Source: a virus
Lineage: Duplodnaviria; Caudoviricetes
Virus record (IMG/VR): IMGVR_UViG_3300022602_000025
Reading direction: 5' to 3' (one strand)
Length of the DNA stretch: 64,000 nt
Under the pieces are notes generated by a model, which saw only the letters and a program-made list of their open reading frames with translations, had not been told where the DNA came from and did not search any database. This document shows, piece by piece, positions 30,759 to 57,302 of this stretch. Both the position numbers and the translations under genes were made by a program. The first letter of the stretch is position 1, and the number at the start of each line of letters is the position of its first letter.

Positions 30759-30802
30759 GCGAATATTTATGGTCATTATAGTAGCATATAAATATTCGCA
30801 TG
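30756..30802. repeat. perfect 15-bp inverted repeat forming divergent late promoter/ATG units
   Basis: CATGCGAATATTTAT-N17-ATAAATATTCGCATG. Confidence 0.92.
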
Positions 30803-35176: not shown

Positions 35177-35992
35177 ATGATACGCGGAATTGGCGGAAAG
35201 CCCTACATCAGTTTAGACGAACATCTTGATATACAAGGATTTGTAGATCTGCATCCAGAAATATGCAGAGGCTTTGCGTTGGCCAGAGATTATGCTAAAG
35301 AAGGCACATGGATGAAACCTGGCTTTGATTGGAAAGACGCTAGCTATACAGTCAATTGGAAACCTATCTATAAAGCTGTTGAAGAATATCTGGCATTACC
35401 TACTGAACATCCTATTCGTAAGAATGGTGATGACTTATACTTTACTGACCTAAGTGATTTTAAGAATCGCAATACATTTACCAGATATCTAAAAAGCGTA
35501 CTAGGTGCAAGCGATCCTTACATATACTATTTCTTATGGGAACAGGGCGATTGGAATCAGCGTAATGCTGTCCGTGAACCTACTGAAGAAAGCAAATACT
35601 TTCCAGGTGTTGTCCGTTGGGTAAACAGCCTAGTAGAACAAAACATTATTAGCCAAATTGGACGTGTGATATTCTTTCATTGCGATCATAACGGACTAGC
35701 ATTTGAGCATAGAGATTTAGATGCAGACAATGGTGTGTTAGATAAAGATTCATATACTGATCATCGTAACGAGTTTATACACATCCGTTATAGAACCAAG
35801 CGTGGATTCTACATTTGGGATCCTGATACACAAAACAAATACTATATCAATTCACATGCAGGCTTTTGGAATGACGAAGACTGGCACGGTGGAGATACTA
35901 GTAACGAACAAGAGTATGCACTACGAATAGATTGCGTGTTCACTGATGAGTTCCGCAAGAAACTAGGCATAGATCATTTAGATACTTACTAA
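35177..35992 (+). CDS. 2OG-Fe(II) oxygenase-like cupin
   Basis: GRVIFF...FEHRD...WHGG...ALRID; start moved to 35177. Confidence 0.65.
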   Translation: MIRGIGGKPYISLDEHLDIQGFVDLHPEICRGFALARDYAKEGTWMKPGFDWKDASYTVNWKPIYKAVEEYLALPTEHPIRKNGDDLYFTDLSDFKNRNTFTRYLKSVLGASDPYIYYFLWEQGDWNQRNAVREPTEESKYFPGVVRWVNSLVEQNIISQIGRVIFFHCDHNGLAFEHRDLDADNGVLDKDSYTDHRNEFIHIRYRTKRGFYIWDPDTQNKYYINSHAGFWNDEDWHGGDTSNEQEYALRIDCVFTDEFRKKLGIDHLDTY

Positions 35993-36486
35993 TGGAATAC
36001 ATAGGCAACTACAGTAGTTGGGTTGAACCTTTATGGGAACATAAGGTATTAACAACTGACGGACAAGCTCGCCCTCGTGACTGGCCTCCTGCTACGGCAG
36101 TCGAGTCTGCAGAGTACGACCGGTATCAAACAGCAGGATATGATTTAACTACTGTTAACTGGTGGGTGTATGAAGAACAAGATCTAAACGTACAAATAAA
36201 ACCTACATGGACTACAGGTAAAGTACATTGGTGGTTCACTAAACTACTACCTGGACAGTATATGCCTGTACACACAGATCCACATGCACACGATGCACCC
36301 TGCAATCGTTATTGGATGCCCATGCAAGACTATGCTCCTGGCCATGTATTCATATACGAAGATCAAATGATATCTAACTACAAGATGGGCGACTTGTACA
36401 AGTTTACAGATTCAACAGCACTACACGGTGCTGCCAACATTGGGCATACTCCTAGAGTCATGCTAATGATTACTGAATATCTATGA
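35992..36486 (+). CDS. 2OG-Fe(II) oxygenase (AspH-like cupin)
   Basis: LLPGQYMPVHTD...LHGAAN..HTPR. Confidence 0.8.
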   Translation: MEYIGNYSSWVEPLWEHKVLTTDGQARPRDWPPATAVESAEYDRYQTAGYDLTTVNWWVYEEQDLNVQIKPTWTTGKVHWWFTKLLPGQYMPVHTDPHAHDAPCNRYWMPMQDYAPGHVFIYEDQMISNYKMGDLYKFTDSTALHGAANIGHTPRVMLMITEYL

Positions 36487-38886: not shown

Positions 38887-40050
38887 ATGAGAGAAACTTA
38901 TTGTGCCTTAGGTTGGACAGGCTTAAACATTACTCCAAGAAGTGCGTCTGTTTGTTGCTGGTCAAGCGAACGCATTCCCTATAGCCAAGTCAATCAGTCT
39001 AACGCAATAGAGTCGCCGATACTGTTTGTTACTCGAGATAAGATGTTAAAGAACGAGCTAGTGGCCGGATGCTCACAATGTTATCACAACGAAGACATAG
39101 GCATATGGTCTAGGCGACAGCACGCTAACGAAAGAATTGGTAGAGTTGAGGAAGTTAAGTTACGTACATTAGATATTAGTTTTGATAATATTTGTAATTT
39201 AAAATGTCGCGGATGTATTAGTGCTGCTAGTCATTTGTGGAGAGACGATGAGGAAGCAATATATGGTCGGACGTTCTTTGATAAGAAATATGACAAATCA
39301 AACTTATGGGAATCTATAGATTACAGCGGACTTGATAAAATTATTGTATCTGGTGGAGAACCATTCCTTAGCCCTAATGCAGAAGCATTCTTTGCCAAAC
39401 TAGATAATATTGAAAACATTGATTTAACTGTATCAACTAACGGAACGGTTTTGCCTGGCCCTGCATTTTACAATGCCCTGTTAAATTGTAAATCGCTTGA
39501 CTTATCTATAAGTTTAGAAGGGTACGGGTCAGTAACAGAATACTTTAGAAGTCTTTCAAACTTCGATACAGTGATCGCTAATCTAAGAGAATTAGAAAAA
39601 CTTATTGATCTACGTAAGACAAAGACATTGATACAAATTACAACAGTGGTCAGCATATACAACGCTACTAAGTTATCAGACTTAGGAGATTTCCTTAAAA
39701 AAGAATTTCCAAGAGTTGCATGGTTGACTAAAGTATTGAGTTGGCCTCCACAGTTATCCTTAAGCAACATGCCCGAGGATCTAAAAGATATAATGCGTCC
39801 TGTAATAGAAAGTTATGGACCTAGCCAACAGCACATACTTAATCATTTAAACATGCCCGGAGATAATCTGTTTGAGCATTTTTTAAACTTTCATAATAAG
39901 TTAGATGAGCTACGTAATGAAAACTTAAGAAACTGTAATGAATTATTAGCAGACTATGTTGATGCGTATCAAACACAAAATCCTGTTAGGGTTGACAGCA
40001 AAGAATTTCTTAATACACAAATGTTAAACTTATTGAGCAATCTTGGCTAG
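38887..40050 (+). CDS. radical SAM protein with N-terminal SPASM/twitch-like domain
   Basis: YCALGW...VCC, CSQC, CNLKCRGC, SGGEP, STNG. Confidence 0.9.
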   Translation: MRETYCALGWTGLNITPRSASVCCWSSERIPYSQVNQSNAIESPILFVTRDKMLKNELVAGCSQCYHNEDIGIWSRRQHANERIGRVEEVKLRTLDISFDNICNLKCRGCISAASHLWRDDEEAIYGRTFFDKKYDKSNLWESIDYSGLDKIIVSGGEPFLSPNAEAFFAKLDNIENIDLTVSTNGTVLPGPAFYNALLNCKSLDLSISLEGYGSVTEYFRSLSNFDTVIANLRELEKLIDLRKTKTLIQITTVVSIYNATKLSDLGDFLKKEFPRVAWLTKVLSWPPQLSLSNMPEDLKDIMRPVIESYGPSQQHILNHLNMPGDNLFEHFLNFHNKLDELRNENLRNCNELLADYVDAYQTQNPVRVDSKEFLNTQMLNLLSNLG

Positions 40051-40788
40051 ATTATAACTTCTAACTACTAATTCTGCAAATTCTTCTAGCCTTTCTCCGT
40101 ACCCGTAACTGTGACCAATAACGTGCATACGCGGTTCGTCTGATTGATTTATTACAGCATGGGTATGTCTAATGTTTACGATAAAGGCTTTGCCTTCTTT
40201 AAAAGGCACAACACCTTTGCCTTCTAATACCATATAACAGTTGTCTGGTTGTATAACAGCAATATTGATTGGAATCCCAAATGCAAGTGCATCAAAGTTT
40301 TCTTCTCCAGGAAGTCTACCAGGCATATCGCTATGTGGATTAATTGCACAATCAGGTTCTAGTTCCATAAATCTAATTCTGCGATACTTGTCTGTAGGAA
40401 ACTGTGTTTCCCAGAATCGTCTAATAGTAGGTGCTCTATACGATAATGAGGTCCAATGATATGGTACTGTCTTTTCTTCAGTGTATCCATAGTTTGTCCA
40501 AGCACCTGTGGACGCAATATCAATACCATGTAAGCAAGCACTATTCCAACCTGTGTTTTCATCTTCCCTATGCGGAACTAACCAAGGTGCAGACATAAGT
40601 GATTCTAGTTGCCATCCTCCAATATCTATATTAATATCGAGTTCAAGCCATCCAAAGTCTGTTTGATTTAATAGCCAGCTGGCTATTTCTATATTCGTAG
40701 TAAGATTGCTAGGGACATCTGGCAATGTCCAAGAACAGTCTTTGTTCTTTTGGTAAAATTCTAAGGTGCTCATATCTATCATGTACAT
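40030..40788 (-). CDS. aspartyl/asparaginyl beta-hydroxylase-like 2OG-Fe(II) oxygenase
   Basis: RIRFMELEPDCAINPHSD...THAVIN.SDEPR.H. Confidence 0.85.
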   Translation of the reverse strand: MYMIDMSTLEFYQKNKDCSWTLPDVPSNLTTNIEIASWLLNQTDFGWLELDINIDIGGWQLESLMSAPWLVPHREDENTGWNSACLHGIDIASTGAWTNYGYTEEKTVPYHWTSLSYRAPTIRRFWETQFPTDKYRRIRFMELEPDCAINPHSDMPGRLPGEENFDALAFGIPINIAVIQPDNCYMVLEGKGVVPFKEGKAFIVNIRHTHAVINQSDEPRMHVIGHSYGYGERLEEFAELVVRSYNLAKIAQ

Positions 40789-40825
40789 AGTTATCCGTGC
40801 ATTAAATACAGGATAGGAGACATGG

Positions 40826-41464
40826 ATGCCCAGCTATTTTGGTAATACCGAAGATTTAATTGATTGGAAGTCAGTACTTGAATCAATTAAAGATAAGAAA
40901 GGGATATACGACATATATAACCCTGAGCTAGAGTATGACGATTCGAAACCTGCAGAAGAAACAGCCGCAGAAAAACTAGAAGTAGACATGCAAAGAATGC
41001 TCGAAGAAAACAAGGACAAGGATTACTTTGGGGATATCGTTAAGACTGCTCGCAAAGTACTAGGTGCATGGTGGGACGTTGGTTATAAGAAATCTGAAGT
41101 ATACTGGGAAGATTTTTACGCAGGTGAGCATTTTGATATCGCTGTGCAAGATGCGTTTATTAAACTAACAGGAGAAACTCCTATACGTGTATTCATAACA
41201 CGATTACTTCCTGGTAAAGTTGCACCAATGCACTTTGATGTATTTCCTGATCTAACTCCGTATCAAGCCTTAGGTGAAGTGTCTAGATATACTTGCTTTG
41301 TACAAGAACCGCAATGGGGACATGTTCTTGCATTTAAAGATGCTTGCTATCAAAATCAGCCCGTTGGTAAAATTTACAAATGGAACCATGTTCACGAATG
41401 GCATGCGGCTGCAAACATGGGCCTAACTCCATATTACATATTTCATTTCATAGGTTATAAATGA
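40826..41464 (+). CDS. 2OG-Fe(II) oxygenase (AspH-like cupin)
   Basis: LLPGKVAPMHFD...WHAAAN; paralog of 25275. Confidence 0.8.
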   Translation: MPSYFGNTEDLIDWKSVLESIKDKKGIYDIYNPELEYDDSKPAEETAAEKLEVDMQRMLEENKDKDYFGDIVKTARKVLGAWWDVGYKKSEVYWEDFYAGEHFDIAVQDAFIKLTGETPIRVFITRLLPGKVAPMHFDVFPDLTPYQALGEVSRYTCFVQEPQWGHVLAFKDACYQNQPVGKIYKWNHVHEWHAAANMGLTPYYIFHFIGYK

Positions 41465-42366
41465 CACGCTTACCACATGACAAACGTCATCTGCCCTTTG
41501 GAAATTCTGCTGCTATAATGGATGACGATACGTTGTCTGTATTAGATCAAGTGGACTTATCATCTGCTCTAGCAAGAGATACAGTTGCTGAATACTGTGC
41601 TACCTATAGAGATTGGATACTATCATCTAAGGGTAATACTATAACAGGGCTAGAGCAGTTTCCGTATGCTTGCTATTCTAATGGAACAACAGAATCCTTT
41701 GATAAGTTTTATATCAAAAATCGCACTAGACGTTTTCGTTGTTTCCGCGGCGAGTATATGTATCATCAGCTGATGTGGCGCAACAGCTGGCCGGATTGGT
41801 TCTGGTTAGATGATGCTTGCTTAGATCCTAACGATGCTGTAGTAATCAGTTTACCGTTTAGTGACACGGGCAAAGAACATCATTTGCATCAAGCTCTATT
41901 AGATGGATGTGATGAACTTGGAATTCCTGTGTTAGTGGATTGTGCGTACTTTGGTATATGTTCAGATATTAACTTTGACTTCACGCACAAGTGTATCACT
42001 GATGTGGTGTTTAGTTTAAGTAAGACATTCCCAATAGCACATGCAAGAGCCGGCATTCGTTTTACTAGAACAGATGACGATGATAGTTTATTCGTATGTA
42101 ATAAAGCAGGCTACGTAAACAGAATTGGCTGTGCTATTGGACTAGCATACATGAAACAATTCTCTCCAGATTATATAGTTGACAAGTATAAACAAACTCA
42201 ACTTACATTGTGTAACAAACTATCGGTAGAAGTTAGTAATACTGTATTGTTTGGTATTGGCGGAGAAAAGTGGCAGGAATATAATCGCGGGTGTGCTACT
42301 AACAGACTTAGTTTCCACAAAATGCTACACTTAACTCCTGAGCAGATTAATGACCTACACTGGTAA
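41461..42366 (+). CDS. PLP-dependent enzyme, fold type I
   Basis: NGTTESF, LVDCAYFG, SLSKT, RAGIR; paralog of 29895. Confidence 0.75.
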   Translation: MTRLPHDKRHLPFGNSAAIMDDDTLSVLDQVDLSSALARDTVAEYCATYRDWILSSKGNTITGLEQFPYACYSNGTTESFDKFYIKNRTRRFRCFRGEYMYHQLMWRNSWPDWFWLDDACLDPNDAVVISLPFSDTGKEHHLHQALLDGCDELGIPVLVDCAYFGICSDINFDFTHKCITDVVFSLSKTFPIAHARAGIRFTRTDDDDSLFVCNKAGYVNRIGCAIGLAYMKQFSPDYIVDKYKQTQLTLCNKLSVEVSNTVLFGIGGEKWQEYNRGCATNRLSFHKMLHLTPEQINDLHW

Positions 42367-43492
42367 AATAATTAACTTTGAACTACTGTATGCAGATGAT
42401 CCTATAAAAGACCTGCACAAGCGTATTCTTGTTGACATTGATCAAGCGGCCGAAGAAGGTTGCGATGCAATCGTTGGGCTGATGCTGGTCGATGGATTCT
42501 TATATAAAAATAATGAAGAATTTTATGCAATATTAAATGCTGTCCAAGATTATGCAACAGCCAAAGGTATTAAAAAGAAAATACTAGTACTAGGAATGGC
42601 AGAGCAATATCAACACAAACTAGATGCTAGAGGACTAGACTATGAAATAGTATTTTGGGACTTTAATGTTAATCTAGTATATCAATCATACAAAGATAAA
42701 TCAACAGCACAATGGAATAGCTCTGCAGATAAGTTTTTATTCTTAGGCGGAGTTCCTAGTCGTCCTAATCGCATATCGCTATTGTACAATTATTACATTT
42801 CTGGTTTATTAGAAAATAGTGTTTGGAGTTTCTTTCCTCCATGGACTGACAATGATAAAATAGAATGTAGACAATTATTAAAAGACGTGCCTGCTAACAT
42901 ATACGATAAATTTTTAGTAGACTGTACTAGCTCGATTGATACGCTATATGATGAAGCAAAGGACTATTCAAGATTGTCCAATACAGAAATTAAACAGTCC
43001 AATATACATAATACCCAATGGTGCCAGGATCCATCTTATATAGATCCTAAGGTATTTGAAAGTACAGCATTTAGCGTAGTATCAGAAGGTAACGTGTATG
43101 CTCCGGGCAATGACTATAGATTTTTAACTGAAAAAACTTGGCGAGCTGTTATTAATCGACATCCGTTTATATTTGCTGGAGAACCCGAACAGTTTGCACA
43201 TTTAGAATCTTTGGGCCTACGTTCGTTTACAGATTATCTAACGATTAAAGACTATCCTTACATAACATCAATTCAAAATAGATTCAATGCTATTGTAGAT
43301 AATACCAAACATTTATTAGAAACATTTAAAGAACACTCTGCTCAAATACAAGCAGATGTAGATGCGAACTATAATGTATTTTTACAAATAGTAGAGCAGA
43401 ACAAGCAAACACTTGATAAGCTACAACAACAGTATTCGCTAACTGATATAGATTATTGGTTTGGTCAAAAGAGTTTTACACATTTGGTATAA
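42350..43492 (+). CDS. putative glycosyltransferase (GT10-like C-terminal motif)
   Basis: FSVVSE...FLTEKTWR...HPF...G....LESLGLRSF. Confidence 0.55.
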   Translation: MTYTGKIINFELLYADDPIKDLHKRILVDIDQAAEEGCDAIVGLMLVDGFLYKNNEEFYAILNAVQDYATAKGIKKKILVLGMAEQYQHKLDARGLDYEIVFWDFNVNLVYQSYKDKSTAQWNSSADKFLFLGGVPSRPNRISLLYNYYISGLLENSVWSFFPPWTDNDKIECRQLLKDVPANIYDKFLVDCTSSIDTLYDEAKDYSRLSNTEIKQSNIHNTQWCQDPSYIDPKVFESTAFSVVSEGNVYAPGNDYRFLTEKTWRAVINRHPFIFAGEPEQFAHLESLGLRSFTDYLTIKDYPYITSIQNRFNAIVDNTKHLLETFKEHSAQIQADVDANYNVFLQIVEQNKQTLDKLQQQYSLTDIDYWFGQKSFTHLV

Positions 43493-43493
43493 T

Positions 43494-44057
43494 ATGGACA
43501 TAAGAAATTACCAGGGCGACCTTACAGAAATTACAGCAAAACTGCATGAAGTCTTTGAATACGATGCTATTGCTGAATATCTCAAAACAGCGTATAATGT
43601 AGGAGCAGACAATAACGATATCGATCTTTACGGCAAGCCCGTTAAGGATTACGACAATGTAGATACACACTATCTTTCTTTATACAGTTTAGAAAAGGGT
43701 GATGTTTGTACTGTAGACAGCTTTAAAGAGTTAGTGTCAATTGGTAAAGCATTGCCAGGAGTGAACAAGATACAAATGGTATTCATTGGTCCTAACTCTT
43801 TAGTGCCGTGGCACAAAGATGGGATGCACATGACAGATGAAGAACGCGAAAGAATAAGCAAGTGCAACATCTTAATTCCTGCATGTGTTCCTAAAGGTAC
43901 AACAGAACTAGTTGGAGTTCAACTAGAAGATACAATACTAGATGTACAAGATACAATAGTATTTGAAAGTAAACATCCACACTATGCTTGGAATAAATCT
44001 AGCGAGTGGTGGGTTATATTAATTTGTTACACACAAAGAGGATTTATAAACGAATGA
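43494..44057 (+). CDS. 2OG-Fe(II) oxygenase (AspH-like cupin)
   Basis: IGPNSLVPWHKD...PHYAWN; start moved to 43494. Confidence 0.75.
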   Translation: MDIRNYQGDLTEITAKLHEVFEYDAIAEYLKTAYNVGADNNDIDLYGKPVKDYDNVDTHYLSLYSLEKGDVCTVDSFKELVSIGKALPGVNKIQMVFIGPNSLVPWHKDGMHMTDEERERISKCNILIPACVPKGTTELVGVQLEDTILDVQDTIVFESKHPHYAWNKSSEWWVILICYTQRGFINE

Positions 44058-45109
44058 AGATATCAACACACAACCATTGGGATCCACTAGAAGAAATTAT
44101 AGTAGGCATCGCAGATCACGCTCGTGTGCCTACAGTAGATCGTAGCACTATGAGTATGAGCTACACTAACCATCCTATTGAAAAGATTAAACCTTTAGAA
44201 GGAGCATATCCTCAAGCGTTAATTGACGAAGCAAATGAAGACATGCAAGGACTTGCAGACATACTTAGCAAGCTAGGTGTTATTGTACATCGTCCTAAAG
44301 CAATTGATCATAGCGTAGAGTTTAGTACTCCTGAATGGAAAACTACTGGTTGGTATACTTGGTGTCCTCGTGATTTGTTATTGCCATTAAACAATCTAAT
44401 AATCGAAACTCCTAGTAGCTGTCGTGCTAGATACTTTGAAACTCGTGCGTACCGTGACGTAATGCTATCTGCTATCAAAGATGGCGTCGAGTGGATCGCG
44501 GCTCCTAAGCCTATCCTACCCGATGAAAGCTATCAGTTTGAAGACATTGATCGCAAGCCAAGCCTAACAAACTTAGAGCCAGTGTTTGATGCGCCTAACT
44601 GTGTGCGTATGGGCAAAGACATTATGTTCCAAATTAGTAACACAGGTAATCACTGGGGACTACAATGGTTGCGTAATACACTAGAGCCACGTGGTTATCG
44701 TATTCATCCTGCTGAACACATTTACAGTTACGGACACTTTGACAGTACGATCATTCCCTTACGTCCTGGACTAGTGCTACTAAACAGTAGCCGTGTTACT
44801 CCAGACAACTGTCCTAAACTGTTTGAGAAGTGGGACAAGATATGGTTCGAAGATTGTGTTGTGCAAGGTAGCAAAGTACCTGGGGGTGTTGCTCCGTGTA
44901 GTCCGTACATCGGTATGAACATCCTTAGTGTTAATCCTAACACGATTATTTGCGACAGCACACAAGAGCCACTAATGCGTGAACTAGACAAGTATGGTAT
45001 CGACAGTATTCCTGTACAGTTCCGTCATGCTATGACACTAAGCGGTGGCATACATTGTGCTACACTAGACCTACGCCGTACAGGCACATTAGAAGATTAC
45101 TTTTCATGA
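44054..45109 (+). CDS. amidinotransferase (glycine/inosamine-phosphate amidinotransferase family)
   Basis: WDPLEEIIVG, CPRD, FDAPN, GHFDST, GGIHCATLDL. Confidence 0.92.
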   Translation: MKISTHNHWDPLEEIIVGIADHARVPTVDRSTMSMSYTNHPIEKIKPLEGAYPQALIDEANEDMQGLADILSKLGVIVHRPKAIDHSVEFSTPEWKTTGWYTWCPRDLLLPLNNLIIETPSSCRARYFETRAYRDVMLSAIKDGVEWIAAPKPILPDESYQFEDIDRKPSLTNLEPVFDAPNCVRMGKDIMFQISNTGNHWGLQWLRNTLEPRGYRIHPAEHIYSYGHFDSTIIPLRPGLVLLNSSRVTPDNCPKLFEKWDKIWFEDCVVQGSKVPGGVAPCSPYIGMNILSVNPNTIICDSTQEPLMRELDKYGIDSIPVQFRHAMTLSGGIHCATLDLRRTGTLEDYFS

Positions 45110-45588
45110 TAGAATACGTTACCCGCATTGAGGACTTTTGGACAAGTGATTTACAATCGTTTGTATTTCCGCATCTAAGTCCTACCGGGCAACGTGATAG
45201 CTTTCATACAAATTACAGTAAAGCAAATAATGATTTACCGCAAGCATTTGATAGCGAAATACCTAACTACGAAAAGTTTCCTACAGCACTTGGATTAGAT
45301 AATGTTGCTGTTAGCTGGACCTGTATAGAACCCGGACAGGCTATTCCTATACATCAAGATGCTTTTTATAAACTAAGACAGAAACATTCTGTAGATATAG
45401 AACAATGTGTTAGGTATCTAGTATTCCTACAAGATTGGGAACTCGGCCACTTTGTTGAGTTTGAAAATTTTGAATTAACCAAATGGCATAAGGGTGATGT
45501 TTACAAGTTTGATTATCAAGCTACCCATTGTGCAGCTAATGCTAGTAACTCTAGATTTGTTACTTGCCAAGTAAACAGTCTTAAATAG
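45106..45588 (+). CDS. 2OG-Fe(II) oxygenase (AspH-like cupin)
   Basis: IEPGQAIPIHQD...THCAAN. Confidence 0.78.
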   Translation: MIEYVTRIEDFWTSDLQSFVFPHLSPTGQRDSFHTNYSKANNDLPQAFDSEIPNYEKFPTALGLDNVAVSWTCIEPGQAIPIHQDAFYKLRQKHSVDIEQCVRYLVFLQDWELGHFVEFENFELTKWHKGDVYKFDYQATHCAANASNSRFVTCQVNSLK

Positions 45589-45606
45589 ACTTATATAGAG
45601 GACGAT

Positions 45607-46728
45607 ATGCTTACATCACTACAAACACACTGGGACAATAAAACACTCGACTACGACTTAAAAAAATATAACTGGCCTGCATGGGCATTAAGCGTTATCC
45701 AAGAAGTCGCTCCGCAAATTAAAGAGCTAGAAACAATGCACTTGTATCTAACTCCTGCTGAAATCGTTAAAGTTGGCAATCACGTACAAAATGCGTGTAG
45801 TCGCAGAGACTTTATGGAACGCTTTGATGAGTTCGCTATGAGTGTAGTTCCTCAGCGTATTGATGGTAAGCGTTTTATGATACAGCGTCAAGGTACTCTG
45901 CGTGTTGTTATTCCTAATCAAGCAAAAGTAGGTCGCAGACTTGCTTTCCATCAAGGTATCTTTGTGGGCAACGGACGCGGCTGTAGAACTATTTGGACTC
46001 CGTTTACCAAAGCAGAAAAGACTAACACCATGTGGATGTTAGACTTAGACATTAGTCGTGTGATTACTAAGCGTGTTCTTGCTGAAAAATGGACTATGGA
46101 ACAGTTTGAGGACGAGTGTTTAAAACATGCTTGGCCAGTAACCTTACAACCTGGACAAAGTCATCTGTTCTTCCAAGAACATATTCACGGCAACGTAAAC
46201 AATGATGAAGGGTATACTCGTGTTAGTATGGATATGCGTATTCTTATTGAAGGCGAGGAATGGGGACGTAGACTTCCTGGCGGCTTTATGCGATTACCGG
46301 GCGACTATGAAGTAACACAAACTGGTGACTATACTGGTAAGAGCTTTATTACCTATGCAGGATGGAACAGTACATTTAGTAAAAACATTCCTTTGCCGAT
46401 GCAACGTGCTATTATTGAGCCGTATTGTGTTAAAAACAAGATTAGTTACAACAGCTACGAATTTGAAAATGAACACATGGATTGGCAACCAGGACTAGAA
46501 TATTATATTAAAGAACGTCCAGATGGCATCGTGCTATCTAGCATGTATGCACTTACTGACGATGTTGTTCGTAGAAGTGAATTGCTACAACTAGCATTAG
46601 ACAACGGCGTAGAATTGCATTTTGCTAACGAATTATGTGCGTTGAAAACTGTAGATGATCTAGAAAAGATTGAAACTTACTTGAATTTCGCTGTTCCGAA
46701 AAAGGGTCCGTACGTCTGGGAGGAGTAA
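45607..46728 (+). CDS. StrG/PhyH-like cupin oxygenase with extra C-terminal domain
   Basis: AFHQG, TIWTPFT, HIHGNVNN...TRVSMDMR; HxG in place of HxD. Confidence 0.6.
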   Translation: MLTSLQTHWDNKTLDYDLKKYNWPAWALSVIQEVAPQIKELETMHLYLTPAEIVKVGNHVQNACSRRDFMERFDEFAMSVVPQRIDGKRFMIQRQGTLRVVIPNQAKVGRRLAFHQGIFVGNGRGCRTIWTPFTKAEKTNTMWMLDLDISRVITKRVLAEKWTMEQFEDECLKHAWPVTLQPGQSHLFFQEHIHGNVNNDEGYTRVSMDMRILIEGEEWGRRLPGGFMRLPGDYEVTQTGDYTGKSFITYAGWNSTFSKNIPLPMQRAIIEPYCVKNKISYNSYEFENEHMDWQPGLEYYIKERPDGIVLSSMYALTDDVVRRSELLQLALDNGVELHFANELCALKTVDDLEKIETYLNFAVPKKGPYVWEE

Positions 46729-46743
46729 ACTAAATAGTAAGTT

Positions 46744-47505
46744 ATGAAACAATTCTTACTAGACAAATTTAATTCTCTTACTAAAGATACTTTAATAGCG
46801 TTTACAAATGCTGTTACTAAAAGTATGCCTGTGTTCAAGAGCGGGTTTACAGGGCTACCGATATGGGGATATACAGATACCGGGTTTTGGACAGTACACC
46901 CTATAAATACCTGCCCTGAGCTACGTTTTTACGGAAATGACGGCTCAGTACATTTACTAGGTATGAGACACGATCAAACATATTTTGATTTATATCAGCG
47001 TATCTATAATGATTTTCAAAATACCGGTTATCGTTGCTTAACTCCTGTGTCGATTGAAGAAGTTAGCATTGTTCCTCATACAGATCTTTATTTTAATCTA
47101 GATAATCAAAGTCAGGTTAGAACACTTTATTACACTCAGTTTACTTCACCAACAGGCGGAATAATAACTCCTGCTTTGTTCTTTGGAGAAGGGTTTGAAA
47201 ACACAACTACTTTGCCTGTATTAACAGAACTAGTAGATCAGTCTTGCAAACTTTTATCTACATTCAAAGAAGTAAGTATACCATTTCCTAGACTAAGTTT
47301 AAGTTACGAGTACATGGGAATTGATAATCAAGGACTGTTCCATACTATATTTCCTACACCGGCCGCAACAGCTGAACAAGGACTTGCTGTTCAGCAAGAA
47401 GCAATGGATGTTGTTACAAACTACGCATTAACAAACATGTCTAGTGATGAACAACAAACACTACAAACATTAATGAGCGAAAAATGGCAACCGTTAACGA
47501 TTTAA
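46744..47505 (+). CDS. hypothetical protein
   Basis: 253 aa ORF after a TAAATA element. Confidence 0.65.
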   Translation: MKQFLLDKFNSLTKDTLIAFTNAVTKSMPVFKSGFTGLPIWGYTDTGFWTVHPINTCPELRFYGNDGSVHLLGMRHDQTYFDLYQRIYNDFQNTGYRCLTPVSIEEVSIVPHTDLYFNLDNQSQVRTLYYTQFTSPTGGIITPALFFGEGFENTTTLPVLTELVDQSCKLLSTFKEVSIPFPRLSLSYEYMGIDNQGLFHTIFPTPAATAEQGLAVQQEAMDVVTNYALTNMSSDEQQTLQTLMSEKWQPLTI

Positions 47506-47738
47506 ACTTTCAAGTAACTCTTTGGAAAGACGACACTAAGATGGTTAGAGCCGATGGCAATTTCCTAATTCCAAATGCCTTAATTACTATATTGAATTAT
47601 TTCCTAGTAGACAAGCAAGACTTTTACACACATATTGAATTACGATATAAAAATCAAGTTGTTTTGTTTGCTGAAGTTGCAGACTTCACGTCAACGCTGA
47701 ATTGGCTGACTCCAAAAACTTTGATCGAAGCCATTTAA
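47484..47738 (+). CDS. hypothetical protein
   Basis: 84 aa ORF coupled to the upstream gene. Confidence 0.5.
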   Translation: MATVNDLNFQVTLWKDDTKMVRADGNFLIPNALITILNYFLVDKQDFYTHIELRYKNQVVLFAEVADFTSTLNWLTPKTLIEAI

Positions 47739-48378
47739 AGTCGTTTATCTTTTGTAGTTCTTCTGGTTTATCTTTATTCAACTCGCCGTAAGCTCTACCT
47801 AACTGTGCTCCTTCAATCGCATTAATTCCGTATTGAACTCCTGCACCCTTAGTACACCAAACATTTAATCTTTCTTCAGTTTCTGCATCAACTTGTCCGT
47901 TGATAACCTTTGAACTTAATTTAACACATTCTCTAAAAGCACTACGCCATGCGTTAAATGGATCTGTGTTAAAATATGTAGCTGATGCGACTTCTGGTAC
48001 AGCAGTAAAGTGCTTAACAATAGAAGTAGTCATGTCTACGCTGTTAGTATCCATGTTCATAGTTGCTACTCTCGGCAATAGCTTAACTCCACCGTTACCG
48101 TAACTTAATCCATTGACAGGGTTTAGAGCTTTATAAACATACACACTTTCAATCCATACACCGTCTGGATCTTTAAATGTAAATGTATCTGCAATTTGAC
48201 TATCGCCATCTACTACCCAAAACATTGAAGTGCGTGATTTCCTTGCCGCAAGTATGTGAGCATTATGTATTCCTTCAACTCCATGCACCCGTCTAGCAAA
48301 TGGAAATCGTGATTTTAACTTTTCCCAATTAGCATCTGCGTTCGGCTCATTATAAGATATAAATGTAATATCAAACAT
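47686..48378 (-). CDS. GT-A fold glycosyltransferase-like protein
   Basis: FISYNEPNAD, HGVEGIHNAH, WVVDGD (DxD), NGLSYGNGGVKL, WRSAFRE. Confidence 0.75.
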   Translation of the reverse strand: MFDITFISYNEPNADANWEKLKSRFPFARRVHGVEGIHNAHILAARKSRTSMFWVVDGDSQIADTFTFKDPDGVWIESVYVYKALNPVNGLSYGNGGVKLLPRVATMNMDTNSVDMTTSIVKHFTAVPEVASATYFNTDPFNAWRSAFRECVKLSSKVINGQVDAETEERLNVWCTKGAGVQYGINAIEGAQLGRAYGELNKDKPEELQKINDFKWLRSKFLESANSALT

Positions 48379-56480: not shown

Positions 56481-57302
56481 ATGAACAAGGTTTTAATTAC
56501 AGGACACCGCGGTTGGATTGGTAGCAATTTTACCAAATTATTAGACAGTCTTGGAATGTTTTGGGTCGGAATTGATCGTTTAGACGGCGAGGATCTGCTC
56601 AAAGATATAACTCCGTTTCAAGAGAAATTAGCGGATTGTGATATTGTAGTACACTTAGCCGCCACTCCTAGAATACCCGCAAGCTGGGCAAATGCAGATC
56701 ACTACAGAGATAATAACATAGGTGTTACAGATCAAATCGCTCGTATTTGTGCAGAACAACATAAACACTTAATTTTTGCTAGCTCTAGTTCAGTATATGG
56801 CAACGGTGACGGCCCCCTAAATCCCTACAGTTGGACAAAGTATGCTGGCGAGCAAAGCATACAGATGTACAGTCGTAGCCGTAATCTAGAATACACTATC
56901 CTGCGTATCTTTACAAACTACGGAGAAGATGATCCTAGCGGACTGGTTATCAGTCGTTGGCTAGATCAGTACAAAAAAGGCGAACCGTTATTGTTAAGAG
57001 GCACGGGAAATCAAAGCAGAGATTTTATCCATGTTAAAGATACTTGCCGTGCTATACTAGCCTGTTGTTTAGAAAAGCCCTTGAATCGAGTATTAGATAT
57101 TGGCACAGGAGTAAATGTAAAACTAATAGATATTGTCAAAGCATTTAATTGCGAATATACGACAGAACCTGAGCTACCTGGATATGCATCGTCAACAAGA
57201 GCTAACGCATACAATACTCGAAAATTTATTAACTGGACACCAGAATATCAACTGCTAGATTGGATCAAAGAGAATCTAGCCCTTGATCAAGGTCGACAGT
57301 AG
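56481..57302 (+). CDS. NAD-dependent epimerase/dehydratase
   Basis: ITGHRGWIG, HLAA, ASSSSVYG, YSWTK, RDFIHVKD. Confidence 0.92.
   Translation: MNKVLITGHRGWIGSNFTKLLDSLGMFWVGIDRLDGEDLLKDITPFQEKLADCDIVVHLAATPRIPASWANADHYRDNNIGVTDQIARICAEQHKHLIFASSSSVYGNGDGPLNPYSWTKYAGEQSIQMYSRSRNLEYTILRIFTNYGEDDPSGLVISRWLDQYKKGEPLLLRGTGNQSRDFIHVKDTCRAILACCLEKPLNRVLDIGTGVNVKLIDIVKAFNCEYTTEPELPGYASSTRANAYNTRKFINWTPEYQLLDWIKENLALDQGRQ

What the first reader, a model, noticed from the sequence alone, without database searches (positions are those of the whole stretch)
40826..46728. Operon pairing an amidinotransferase with a StrG-like oxygenase, a PLP enzyme, a GT-like protein and three more oxygenases
Seen: one coupled plus-strand unit: oxygenase, PLP enzyme, GT10-like protein, oxygenase, amidinotransferase (CPRD/HFD/GGIHC), oxygenase, StrG-like protein. 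Known: streptomycin biosynthesis uses PLP aminotransferases plus the amidinotransferase StrB1 to add guanidino groups to a cyclitol. Inference: oxidise, transaminate, amidinate chemistry giving a guanidino-sugar or guanidinated residue for transfer onto a virion or host surface.
Basis: partly seen in the sequence, partly recalled or inferred. Interest (0 to 1): 0.65.

Follow-up and report, generated by a model that had tools for sequence, protein, structure and literature searches.

The report
Phage guanidino-sugar tailoring operon
An uncultured freshwater giant phage carries a tightly packed operon built around a genuine streptomycin-type enzyme that makes guanidino groups, next to sugar-transferase-like, vitamin-B6 and oxygen-dependent enzymes. 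It probably makes a positively charged, hydroxylated sugar-type unit, but the product and its target are unknown.

Summary
Bases 40826-46728 carry seven co-oriented genes with overlaps or gaps of at most 18 nt, and every gene call was confirmed.

- **O5:** a StrB1-type amidinotransferase (E 7.5e-98 to PDB 1bwd, catalytic residues invariant).
- **O2:** a fold-type-I PLP enzyme, nearest to HisC/CobD.
- **O3:** a GT-B-fold protein with no family assignment, so not specifically GT10.
- **O1, O4, O6:** small AspH-type (PF05118) cupins.
- **O7:** a true homologue of streptomycin StrG (hhalign 99.4%) fused to a LIC12192-type domain. Its iron site reads H-Q-G...Q-x3-H instead of H-x-D.

The enzyme is linked to its neighbours. 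The divergent AspH gene, O2, O3, the amidinotransferase and O6 recur in about 30 related phage contigs. The amidinotransferase/O6-type cupin pair also occurs in Synechococcus phage S-SCSM2R.

The phage amidinotransferases form their own clade outside Streptomyces StrB1. No other streptidine-pathway enzyme is shared.

The most likely function is a guanidino-bearing sugar-type unit. The product, the order of steps and the target are inferred, not shown.

This scan has already found the same cassette on other phage DNA, with similar readings. The literature only notes amidinotransferase plus radical-SAM modules in phages, without a function.

The parts
40030..40788 (-). Divergently transcribed AspH-family (PF05118) 2OG/Fe hydroxylase. 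It is a conserved partner of the cassette.
   Evidence: Pfam Asp_Arg_Hydrox E 5e-9, above the cut-off. Orthologues at 55-68% identity hold the same divergent position in nearly all related loci.
40801..40819 (+). Possible late-type promoter element ATTAAATA (7 of 8 of TATAAATA) and an AGGAG ribosome site, in the 37-bp gap before O1.
   Evidence: Read directly from the sequence. Exact TATAAATA boxes precede other operons of the island at 30787, 38874 and 53109. This is weak evidence, a motif only.
40826..41464 (+). O1, 212 aa: AspH-type cupin oxygenase (H-F-D ... H).
   Evidence: hhalign gives 98.3% to the O6 family and 97.9% to the g35992 family; the window's g35992 protein passes PF05118. Orthologues occur only in L007 (60%) and L040 (37%). 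Other relatives hold a radical SAM, another AspH cupin or an NDP-sugar dehydratase in this slot.
41461..42366 (+). O2, 301 aa: shortened fold-type-I PLP enzyme, HisC/CobD-like.
   Evidence: AlphaFold pLDDT 82.6. Foldseek finds HisC, CobD and class I/II aminotransferases at E 5e-9 to 1e-7, prob 1.0. D160, Y163, S185-L-S-K188 and R196 are invariant in 16 orthologues. Pfam is only E 0.13.
42350..43492 (+). O3, 380 aa: GT-B-fold glycosyltransferase-like protein of a phage-specific family.
   Evidence: pLDDT 92.7. VIA Z 11.8-10 to GT4-type enzymes and to T4 alpha- and beta-glucosyltransferases, and all 50 listed rows but one (7tgh, a respiratory supercomplex chain) are glycosyltransferases or GT-fold proteins. 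Foldseek is weak. Atlas neighbours are all viral, and some are fused to a methyltransferase or an NDP-sugar epimerase/dehydratase. No Pfam or PDB sequence hit.
43494..44057 (+). O4, 187 aa: AspH-type cupin oxygenase (H-K-D ... H).
   Evidence: The Atlas structure match to a PF05118 viral cluster has TM 0.80/0.82 and feature score 0.95. Pfam is weak: Cupin_2 E 0.0076, AspH E 0.068. Relatives have a radical SAM, with or without this cupin, in this slot.
44054..45109 (+). O5, 351 aa: StrB1-type L-arginine amidinotransferase.
   Evidence: phmmer against PDB: StrB1 1bwd E 7.5e-98 (331 bits, full length), HsvA 2e-65, SxtG 5e-60, AGAT 1e-59. D107, R126, D179, H228, D230, H334 and C335 are invariant, even in the cyanophage and Campylobacter-phage homologues. 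2665 relatives at E below 1e-5. The phage clade is monophyletic (SH-aLRT 100).
45106..45588 (+). O6, 160 aa: AspH-type cupin oxygenase (H-Q-D ... H), the most constant neighbour of the amidinotransferase.
   Evidence: hhalign 98.6% to the g35992 PF05118 family. Present beside the amidinotransferase in about 27 loci. Its family also matches the oxygenase directly upstream of the amidinotransferase of Synechococcus phage S-SCSM2R, E 1.8e-20.
45607..46728 (+). O7, 373 aa: StrG/PhyH-like 2OG/Fe domain (about residues 9-225) fused to a LIC12192-type domain (about 259-359). The iron site is H115-Q-G117 ... Q190-x3-H194, with R205.
   Evidence: TIGR04324 E 7e-19 and TIGR04323 E 7e-10, both below the curated cut-offs. 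hhalign to a 24-member StrG family gives 99.4%, E 5e-21, with G117 opposite StrG's invariant Asp. HQG, H194 and R205 are invariant in 10 orthologues. Across cluster representatives, 22 of 22 H-x-G/A proteins have Gln at -4 of the distal His, against 1 of 68 H-x-D/E proteins.
46744..47738 (+). O8 (253 aa) and O9 (84 aa): co-oriented trailing ORFs of unknown function. They are probably not part of the conserved cassette.
   Evidence: No Pfam, NCBIfam or PHROG hit and no homologue in 41 related loci. A TATAAATA lies inside O8 at 46902.

Best explanation
This is a phage biosynthetic cassette, probably expressed late, that installs a guanidino group on a small sugar-type intermediate (an NDP-activated or phosphorylated sugar or polyol) and tailors it oxidatively.

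Proposed steps:
1. The PLP enzyme O2 creates a primary amine on the precursor.
2. The StrB1-type amidinotransferase O5 takes the amidino group of L-arginine onto Cys335, releasing ornithine, and passes it to that amine.
3. The AspH-type cupins O1, O4, O6 and the divergent 40030-40788 gene, together with the StrG-like O7, hydroxylate or otherwise oxidise C-H bonds of the unit.
4. The GT-B protein O3 forms or transfers a glycosidic link.

Shown here: the identity and intact catalytic residues of the enzymes, their translational coupling, and the conserved linkage across many phages. Inferred: the substrate class, the order of steps, the product, and whether it ends up on a glycan, on the virion or as a soluble compound.
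For: - The amidinotransferase is full-length and StrB1-like, with all catalytic residues.
- Its neighbours are fixed. The AspH gene, O2, O3, the amidinotransferase and O6 are syntenic in about 30 phage contigs from IMG/VR, JGI and NCBI. The amidinotransferase/O6-type cupin adjacency also occurs in marine cyanophage S-SCSM2R at 36% amidinotransferase identity.
- O2 has the PLP fold and the lysine, aspartate and arginine motifs.
- O3 has a GT-B fold.
- Sugar context: an NDP-sugar dehydratase/epimerase sits directly before O2 in L038. O3-fold proteins are fused to such enzymes in other phages. An epimerase gene lies at 56481-57302 in the window. O7-family members are annotated as 'sporadic carbohydrate cluster' proteins and sit beside GT2, DegT, UDP-glucose dehydrogenase and epimerase genes.
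- StrB1 and StrG families are linked both in streptomycin-type clusters and here.
Against: - No product or activity has been shown.
- O2 resembles HisC/CobD rather than the DegT/StsC class that aminates keto-sugars and inososes.
- O3 matches no glycosyltransferase sequence family.
- AspH-family enzymes are best known for acting on proteins and lipid A (my own knowledge).
- The surrounding island is rich in radical SAM/SPASM enzymes, which are typical of peptide maturation.
- No sugar-activating nucleotidyltransferase, dehydrogenase or kinase lies inside the operon.
- The phage amidinotransferase clade sits on a long branch outside all bacterial clades, so its acceptor may differ from any known one.
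Confidence: 0.5

Rival explanations
1. The amidinated unit is a small phospho-amine side group, not a sugar. A HisC/CobD-like PLP enzyme makes an amino-alcohol phosphate (of the ethanolamine-phosphate, serinol-phosphate or aminopropanol-phosphate type). O5 converts it to a guanidino-alcohol phosphate. That group then decorates a glycan or another acceptor.
For: O2's closest folds are HisC (histidinol-phosphate aminotransferase) and CobD (threonine-phosphate decarboxylase), both of which act on phosphorylated small substrates. StrB1's own substrates are phosphorylated amines (my own knowledge). The amidinotransferase aligns with StrB1 almost without gaps.
Against: O2 is very divergent (15-18% identity), so its nearest fold says little about its substrate. 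NDP-sugar enzymes recur in or beside the cassette. No ligase for attaching such a group was identified in the operon.
Confidence: 0.15
2. The cassette modifies a protein or a ribosomal peptide, for example a virion protein. AspH-type enzymes hydroxylate side chains, radical SAM enzymes cross-link, and the amidinotransferase converts lysine- or ornithine-type amines to guanidines.
For: PF05118 is the Asp/Asn beta-hydroxylase family. The neighbouring island holds many radical SAM/SPASM genes. In S-SCSM2R, another amidinotransferase and a prolyl dihydroxylase were detected in purified virions (PMC12801897). Some relatives add an AMP-binding enzyme and a small 79-aa protein next to the amidinotransferase.
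Against: The closest characterised amidinotransferases listed (StrB1, HsvA, SxtG, AGAT) are, from my own knowledge, small-molecule enzymes. No precursor peptide is conserved in the operon. The GT-B protein, the NDP-sugar enzymes and the carbohydrate-cluster O7 family point to sugars.
Confidence: 0.13
3. The cassette contributes to a DNA hypermodification, for example a sugar or amine on a modified base that is then guanidinylated.
For: O3's fold matches include the T4 DNA alpha- and beta-glucosyltransferases at Z 11.6 and 10.9. According to unchecked earlier notes, the same genome has a 7-deazaguanine/DpdA island. A minimal module (GT2-like, O7-like, unknown, amidinotransferase) sits directly upstream of DNA polymerase B in one phage group. 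An O7 homologue lies among FolE/PTPS deazaguanine genes and sugar-nucleotide genes in L128. Campylobacter phages carrying amidinotransferase homologues have, from my own knowledge, replaced dG.
Against: The T4 enzymes score no better than many ordinary GT-B enzymes. The cassette lies about 133 kb from the DpdA island. No thymidylate-synthase-type hydroxymethylase was found in a complete 364-kb relative. No DNA-binding feature is known in any of the proteins. No guanidino base is known.
Confidence: 0.07
4. O5 is an ordinary arginine:glycine amidinotransferase or a deiminase acquired alone, with no functional tie to its neighbours.
For: Pfam alone gives only a weak ADI hit (E 0.006). Several metagenome annotations call homologues 'glycine amidinotransferase' or 'dimethylarginine dimethylaminohydrolase'.
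Against: The StrB1 score (331 bits) far exceeds the AGAT score (about 205 bits). Start and stop codons overlap with both neighbours. Synteny is conserved over about 30 contigs and into a cyanophage.
Confidence: 0.02

Closest known systems
StrB1, L-arginine:inosamine-phosphate amidinotransferase of Streptomyces griseus (PDB 1bwd)
   Same: Full-length alignment (residues 3-349 against 4-346), E 7.5e-98, about 45% identity to the orthologues in streptomycin-type loci. It shares the catalytic Asp, His, Asp and Cys and the arginine-binding residues.
   Different: The phage proteins form a separate clade on a long stem and are not nested in the actinomycete StrB1 clade. The rest of the streptidine pathway is absent. 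The acceptor is unknown.
StrG of the streptomycin and bluensomycin clusters (PhyH-like 2OG/Fe protein, function unproven)
   Same: The O7 N-terminal domain aligns over almost all of StrG (hhalign 99.4%, E 5e-21). The proximal and distal His and the 2OG-binding R-x-S are shared. Both genes lie one or two genes downstream of a StrB1-type gene.
   Different: O7 has Gly where StrG has its invariant iron-binding Asp, plus a coupled Gln four residues before the distal His. O7 also carries an extra LIC12192-type C-terminal domain.
TIGR04324 / TIGR04323 'sporadic carbohydrate cluster' 2OG oxygenase and LIC12192-family protein
   Same: Both halves of O7 hit these models (E 7e-19 and 7e-10), and homologues carry these names in JGI/NCBI annotation.
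   Different: Scores are below the curated cut-offs (68 against 150, and 39 against 55). In O7 the two proteins are fused and the iron site is altered. The family has no known function.
HygX-type orthoester synthases (hygromycin B) and Fe/2OG halogenases (SyrB2, WelO5, BesD)
   Same: The proximal motif is H-x-G. HygX is a sugar-tailoring enzyme with H-x-G ... E-x3-H (PMC13374393). O7 has H-x-G ... Q-x3-H at the same spacing.
   Different: O7 has Gln where HygX has the relocated Glu, so it fits neither type cleanly. There is no significant sequence match to any solved halogenase or to HygX; the only PDB hit is PtlH at E 0.58.
Amidinotransferase plus radical-SAM modules of Campylobacter phages CP220/CPt10, and the 'antibiotic synthesis genes' of Synechococcus phage S-SCSM2R
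   Same: These are phage-borne amidinotransferase homologues (30% and 36% identity) beside radical SAM, glycosyltransferase-like and 2OG oxygenase genes. They are reported in PMC2853527 and PMC12801897.
   Different: Only the amidinotransferase, and in S-SCSM2R the O6-type cupin, are detectably homologous. O2, O3 and O7 are not found there. Neither paper assigns a function.

Membership tests
StrB1-type amidinotransferase (amidinotransferase family, pentein fold) | Full-length sequence similarity to a characterised member | tested here: met
   1bwd E 7.5e-98, 331 bits, residues 3-349 of 351.
StrB1-type amidinotransferase (amidinotransferase family, pentein fold) | Catalytic Cys nucleophile with His and Asp partners, and the Asp/Arg residues that hold the guanidino substrate | tested here: met
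   D107, R126, D179, H228, D230, H334 and C335 are invariant in 8 phage homologues and align with the CPRD, FDA, H-x-D and GG-x-HC motifs of StrB1.
StrB1-type amidinotransferase (amidinotransferase family, pentein fold) | Orthology with Streptomyces StrB1 (same clade) | tested here: not met
   The phage clade (32 rows, SH-aLRT 100) is separate from the actinomycete clade that contains the six StrG-linked StrB1 genes. The tree was made by a quick search and is unrooted.
StrB1-type amidinotransferase (amidinotransferase family, pentein fold) | Acceptor is scyllo-inosamine 4-phosphate or N-amidinostreptamine 6-phosphate | not testable with these tools
   This needs an enzyme assay.
Streptidine (streptomycin-type) pathway | Presence of the other pathway enzymes (inositol dehydrogenase, StsC-type aminotransferase, kinase, phosphatase, StrF, StrH) | tested here: not met
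   Profiles of O1-O4 and O6 found nothing in six streptomycin-type loci. Only the StrB1 and StrG families are shared. A StrF profile found nothing in 2117 phage ORFs.
Fold-type I PLP-dependent enzyme (O2) | Fold, Schiff-base lysine, pyridine-N aspartate, phosphate-binding arginine | tested here: met
   Foldseek prob 1.0 to HisC, CobD and aminotransferases. K188, D160 and R196 are invariant. The Pfam score is below the cut-off (E 0.13).
Sugar aminotransferase class (DegT/DnrJ/EryC1, StsC) | Closest similarity to that subfamily | tested here: inconclusive
   None appears among the listed best Foldseek matches, which are class I/II enzymes. O2 is too divergent for this to exclude a sugar substrate.
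GT-B glycosyltransferase (O3) | Two-Rossmann-domain GT-B fold | tested here: met
   VIA Z 11.8-8.7 over residues 1-365. Of the 50 listed rows, all but one (7tgh, a respiratory supercomplex chain) are glycosyltransferases or GT-fold proteins.
   A plant fucosyltransferase appears only at rank 39 (Z 9.1), below many GT4 enzymes. No sequence-family hit.
PF05118 Asp/Asn beta-hydroxylase-type 2OG oxygenases (O1, O4, O6) | Cupin fold with H-x-D ... H and family-level similarity | tested here: met
   H-F-D, H-K-D and H-Q-D plus a distal His are present in the sequences. O1 and O6 score 98% by hhalign to the family of a paralogue that passes Pfam. O4 has TM 0.80 to PF05118 clusters. Their own Pfam scores are below the cut-off.
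StrG / TIGR04324 2OG-Fe(II) oxygenase (O7 N-domain) | Homology over the whole catalytic domain | tested here: met
   hhalign 99.4%, 175 columns, against proteins that NCBI names StrG.
StrG / TIGR04324 2OG-Fe(II) oxygenase (O7 N-domain) | Canonical H-x-D/E ... H iron triad and the curated family score | tested here: not met
   H115-Q-G117 is invariant, where StrG has an invariant Asp. TIGR04324 scores 68 bits against a cut-off of 150.
Fe(II)/2OG halogenase | Carboxylate ligand replaced by Gly/Ala with no substitute ligand | tested here: inconclusive
   Gly is present. However, an invariant Gln sits at the position where HygX has its relocated Glu, in 22 of 22 H-x-G/A relatives.

The most novel reading that the evidence does not exclude
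The cassette makes a guanidinylated sugar that the phage attaches to its own virion proteins or DNA, which would be a kind of cationic macromolecule decoration not described for any virus. In addition, O7, with its carboxylate-less H-x-G ... Q-x3-H iron site, performs non-hydroxylating chemistry (halogenation or oxidative cyclisation) on that sugar.
Probability: 0.12. Interest if true: 0.85.

Novelty: new variant of a known kind. Interest (0 to 1): 0.55.

Why it matters
Guanidino sugars and cyclitols are known from bacterial antibiotics, not from viruses. This StrB1-type enzyme is locked into a conserved cassette found on about 40 phage contigs examined here, from lakes and seas; the enzyme itself has 2665 relatives in metagenome protein collections. 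Large phages may therefore routinely make a cationic, hydroxylated sugar-type compound during infection.

If that compound coats virions or DNA, it could affect adsorption, stability or evasion of host defences. If it is soluble, it would be a phage-made metabolite.

The cassette also links two streptomycin-cluster families, StrB1 and the still unexplained StrG, in a second and very different setting. This gives a new handle on what StrG-type enzymes do. It also exposes a coupled Asp-to-Gly / Gln iron-site variant that can be tested.

Tried and rejected
- **Family libraries:** Pfam, NCBIfam and PHROGs gave nothing significant for O1-O4, O6, O8 and O9.
- **PDB profile searches:** searches with O2, O3 and O7 orthologue alignments gave nothing significant. 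The best were an aspartate aminotransferase at E 0.057, nothing for O3, and PtlH at E 0.58.
- **Nucleotide search:** the operon has no DNA-level match in 50,697 phage records.
- **Shared neighbours in bacteria:** only three phage-like contigs binned into MAGs (L042-L044) share O2, O3 or O6. No bacterial cluster does.
- **A conserved trio of amidinotransferase, StrF and StrG:** rejected at the sequence level, because a StrF profile finds no phage ORF at E up to 1. Phages only have unrelated GT-A-like genes nearby.
- **The 366-401 aa protein** between the O7-like and amidinotransferase genes of the L024-L032 phage group is unrelated to O2, O3 and the others.
- **Whole-genome search:** not possible, because no genome is held for this window.
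- **Hydroxymethylase:** a thymidylate-synthase/hydroxymethylase search in a complete 364-kb relative found none.
- **Promoter and terminator scans:** at or below chance.

Full report
**Setting.** The window has the look of a large T4-like phage: many small ORFs, one tRNA, an ATP-dependent DNA ligase and a 1309-aa lectin-domain protein. G+C drops to about 38% between roughly 16 and 53 kb, against 47% on the left. Earlier notes of this scan describe the genome as an uncultured freshwater jumbo phage with a radical-SAM tailoring island. I did not re-test that, beyond seeing three radical SAM genes and two AspH-type genes just upstream.

**Observation.**
- Nine plus-strand ORFs run from 40826 to 47738.
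- The ATGA overlaps fix the likely starts of the amidinotransferase at 44054 and of the next gene at 45106. O4 most likely starts at 43494.
- The upstream gene (40030-40788) is divergent, with only 37 bp between the two start codons. That gap holds ATTAAATA, a 7-of-8 match to the late box TATAAATA that precedes other operons of the island, and an AGGAG. This is a motif only.
- Generic promoter and terminator scans are at chance level.

**The amidinotransferase (O5).**
- Against all PDB sequences, the best match by far is StrB1 (1bwd): E 7.5e-98, 331 bits, residues 3-349 against 4-346. HsvA, SxtG and AGAT follow at 224-198 bits.
- The catalytic and substrate-holding residues (D107, R126, D179, H228, D230, H334, C335) are invariant in eight phage homologues. 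These include the 36% relative of Synechococcus phage S-SCSM2R and the 30% relative of Campylobacter phage CP220.
- The family is large: 2665 proteins at E below 1e-5, and the best 120 are 68-100% identical.
- In a tree of 111 sequences, the 32 phage-type proteins form one clade (SH-aLRT 100) on a long stem. Three of them come from contigs binned into bacterial MAGs.
- The six actinomycete genes that sit in streptomycin-type loci form another clade (SH-aLRT 99), inside a wholly actinomycete group.
- O5 is therefore a new clade of StrB1-like enzymes, not a recent copy of StrB1.

**Linkage to neighbours.**
- I compared the window's genes with 41 related loci.
- The constant set is: the divergent AspH gene, O2, O3, the amidinotransferase and O6. 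O7 follows in about half of the loci.
- O6-family profiles also hit, at E 1.8e-20, the '2OG-Fe(II) oxygenase' that directly precedes the amidinotransferase in S-SCSM2R.
The enzyme is not a stand-alone Arg:Gly amidinotransferase.

Two slots in the cassette vary between relatives:

| Slot | Window | Relatives |
|---|---|---|
| Before O2 | AspH cupin O1 | One or two radical SAM enzymes; another AspH cupin; in L038 an NDP-sugar 4,6-dehydratase/epimerase (PF01370 E 4e-39, GDP_Man_Dehyd 2e-34) |
| Between O3 and the amidinotransferase | Cupin O4 alone | A radical SAM/SPASM enzyme, with or without an O4-like cupin |

**The other proteins.**
- **O2** folds confidently (pLDDT 82.6). It matches class I/II fold-type-I PLP enzymes, first HisC and CobD, with E 5e-9 and prob 1.0. 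The Asp, the S-x-S-K lysine and the Arg are invariant.
- **O3** folds very confidently (pLDDT 92.7) into a GT-B fold, with Z up to 11.8. It has no sequence family. All but one of the fifty listed matches are glycosyltransferases or GT-fold proteins, so 'GT-like' holds and 'GT10' does not stand out. Its nearest Atlas clusters are all viral, and two are fusions, one to a methyltransferase and one to an NDP-sugar epimerase/dehydratase.
- **O1 and O6** are paralogues of the PF05118 protein at 35992-36486 (hhalign 98%).
- **O4** matches PF05118 clusters by predicted structure (TM 0.80). O1, O4 and O6 all keep H-x-D ... H.

**O7 and StrG.**
- O7 hits TIGR04324 (residues 31-212) and TIGR04323 (residues 259-359), both below the curated cut-offs.
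- In six actinomycete loci, the gene two places downstream of the StrB1 orthologue encodes 199 or 248 aa and is weakly hit by O7. Its close relatives are named 'streptomycin biosynthesis protein StrG' by NCBI.
- A 24-member StrG alignment matches the O7 alignment with 99.4% probability over 175 columns. 'StrG-like' is therefore correct.
- The same alignment puts O7's invariant G117 opposite StrG's invariant iron-binding Asp.
- I compared cluster representatives from a profile search of 1.84 billion proteins. All 22 that read H-x-G/A have Gln four residues before the distal His. Only 1 of 68 H-x-D/E proteins has it.
A review confirms that HygX has H-x-G ... E-x3-H with the acidic ligand relocated (PMC13374393).
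- O7 has the same spacing but an amide instead of the acid. Neither 'halogenase' nor 'HygX type' fits cleanly, and only an assay or a structure can decide.

**What it makes.** Evidence for a sugar-type substrate:
- the GT-B protein;
- the NDP-sugar dehydratase in the L038 slot;
- the fusions of the O3 fold to NDP-sugar enzymes;
- the epimerase gene 10 kb downstream;
- the carbohydrate contexts of O7 relatives, which lie beside GT2 and PhyH genes, or beside DegT, UDP-glucose dehydrogenase and epimerase genes.

Evidence against a streptidine-like route:
- none of the other streptomycin enzymes is shared;
- O2 is not of the StsC/DegT type.

The alternatives cannot be excluded in silico. They are a small phospho-amine side group, a protein or peptide target, and DNA. 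They are listed with their evidence under the rival explanations.

**Literature and earlier findings.**
- Timms et al. 2010 noted that CP220 and CPt10 each carry an exchangeable module of five radical SAM genes plus a putative amidinotransferase, function unknown (PMC2853527).
- The 2025 S-SCSM2R paper lists 'inosamine amidinotransferase', an AHBA-synthase-like PLP enzyme and a radical SAM enzyme as 'antibiotic synthesis genes'. It also reports another amidinotransferase and a prolyl dihydroxylase in purified virions (PMC12801897).
- I found no paper that assigns a product.
- This scan has already reported the same cassette on several other phage genomes, with the same closest relative (StrB1) and similar conclusions. 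It has also reported the O7-type H-Q-G enzyme.

**Verdict.** The feature is real, conserved and widespread, and its chemistry is unknown.

Noticed in passing
window 40826-41464 and 43494-44057; L003:6105-6989, L009:2526-3380, L011:2625-4419, L018:1671-2504, L008:6508-7440, L038:5108-6034: At two fixed positions of the cassette, relatives carry radical SAM enzymes where this phage has AspH-type cupins. One relative has an NDP-sugar dehydratase/epimerase instead. This looks like slot-wise exchange between oxygen-independent and oxygen-dependent C-H-activating enzymes.
   Followed up: partly
window 45607-46728 (residues H115-Q-G117, Q190, H194): The loss of the iron-binding Asp is strictly coupled to a Gln four residues before the distal His (22 of 22, against 1 of 68). 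This is the position of the relocated Glu in HygX. It is a distinct iron-site variant found mostly in phage and metagenome proteins.
   Followed up: partly
L028:2175-9472 and L029:3-6366: A separate phage group (amidinotransferase 67-68% identical) has a minimal module directly upstream of a family B DNA polymerase: a GT2-like gene, an O7-like gene, an unknown 366-401 aa protein, the amidinotransferase and an 85-aa ORF. It has no O2, O3 or O6.
   Followed up: partly
L005:11056-13214; also L014, L015, L019, L041: In several relatives, an AMP-binding (adenylating) enzyme and a 79-86 aa DUF6356 protein are inserted next to the amidinotransferase. This hints at activation of a carboxylate in some versions of the pathway.
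   Followed up: no
L042, L043, L044: Contigs carrying the phage cassette are filed in public MAGs of a Verrucomicrobiales bacterium and a Puniceispirillum sp., and in the Synechococcus lacustris Tous assembly. They are probably phage contigs that were binned or co-assembled with bacteria. The last may hint at a picocyanobacterial host for that lineage.
   Followed up: no
L128:1-15035: An H-T-G O7 homologue in a 130-kb phage contig lies among DegT-like, UDP-glucose dehydrogenase, epimerase and B12-radical SAM genes, GTP cyclohydrolase I, PTPS (QueD-like), a phosphoribosyltransferase and SAM synthetase. Sugar-nucleotide and deazapurine-precursor genes therefore sit together there.
   Followed up: no
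window 46744-47738: Two co-oriented ORFs (253 and 84 aa) after O7 have no family hit and no homologue in any related locus. An exact TATAAATA lies inside the first at 46902. The second overlaps the convergent gene 47686-48378 by 53 nt.
   Followed up: no
L045:7827-10588 (Nocardia sp.): A Nocardia genome has the same StrB1 - StrF-like (Glyco_tranf_2_5) - StrG order as the Streptomyces streptomycin-type loci.
   Followed up: no
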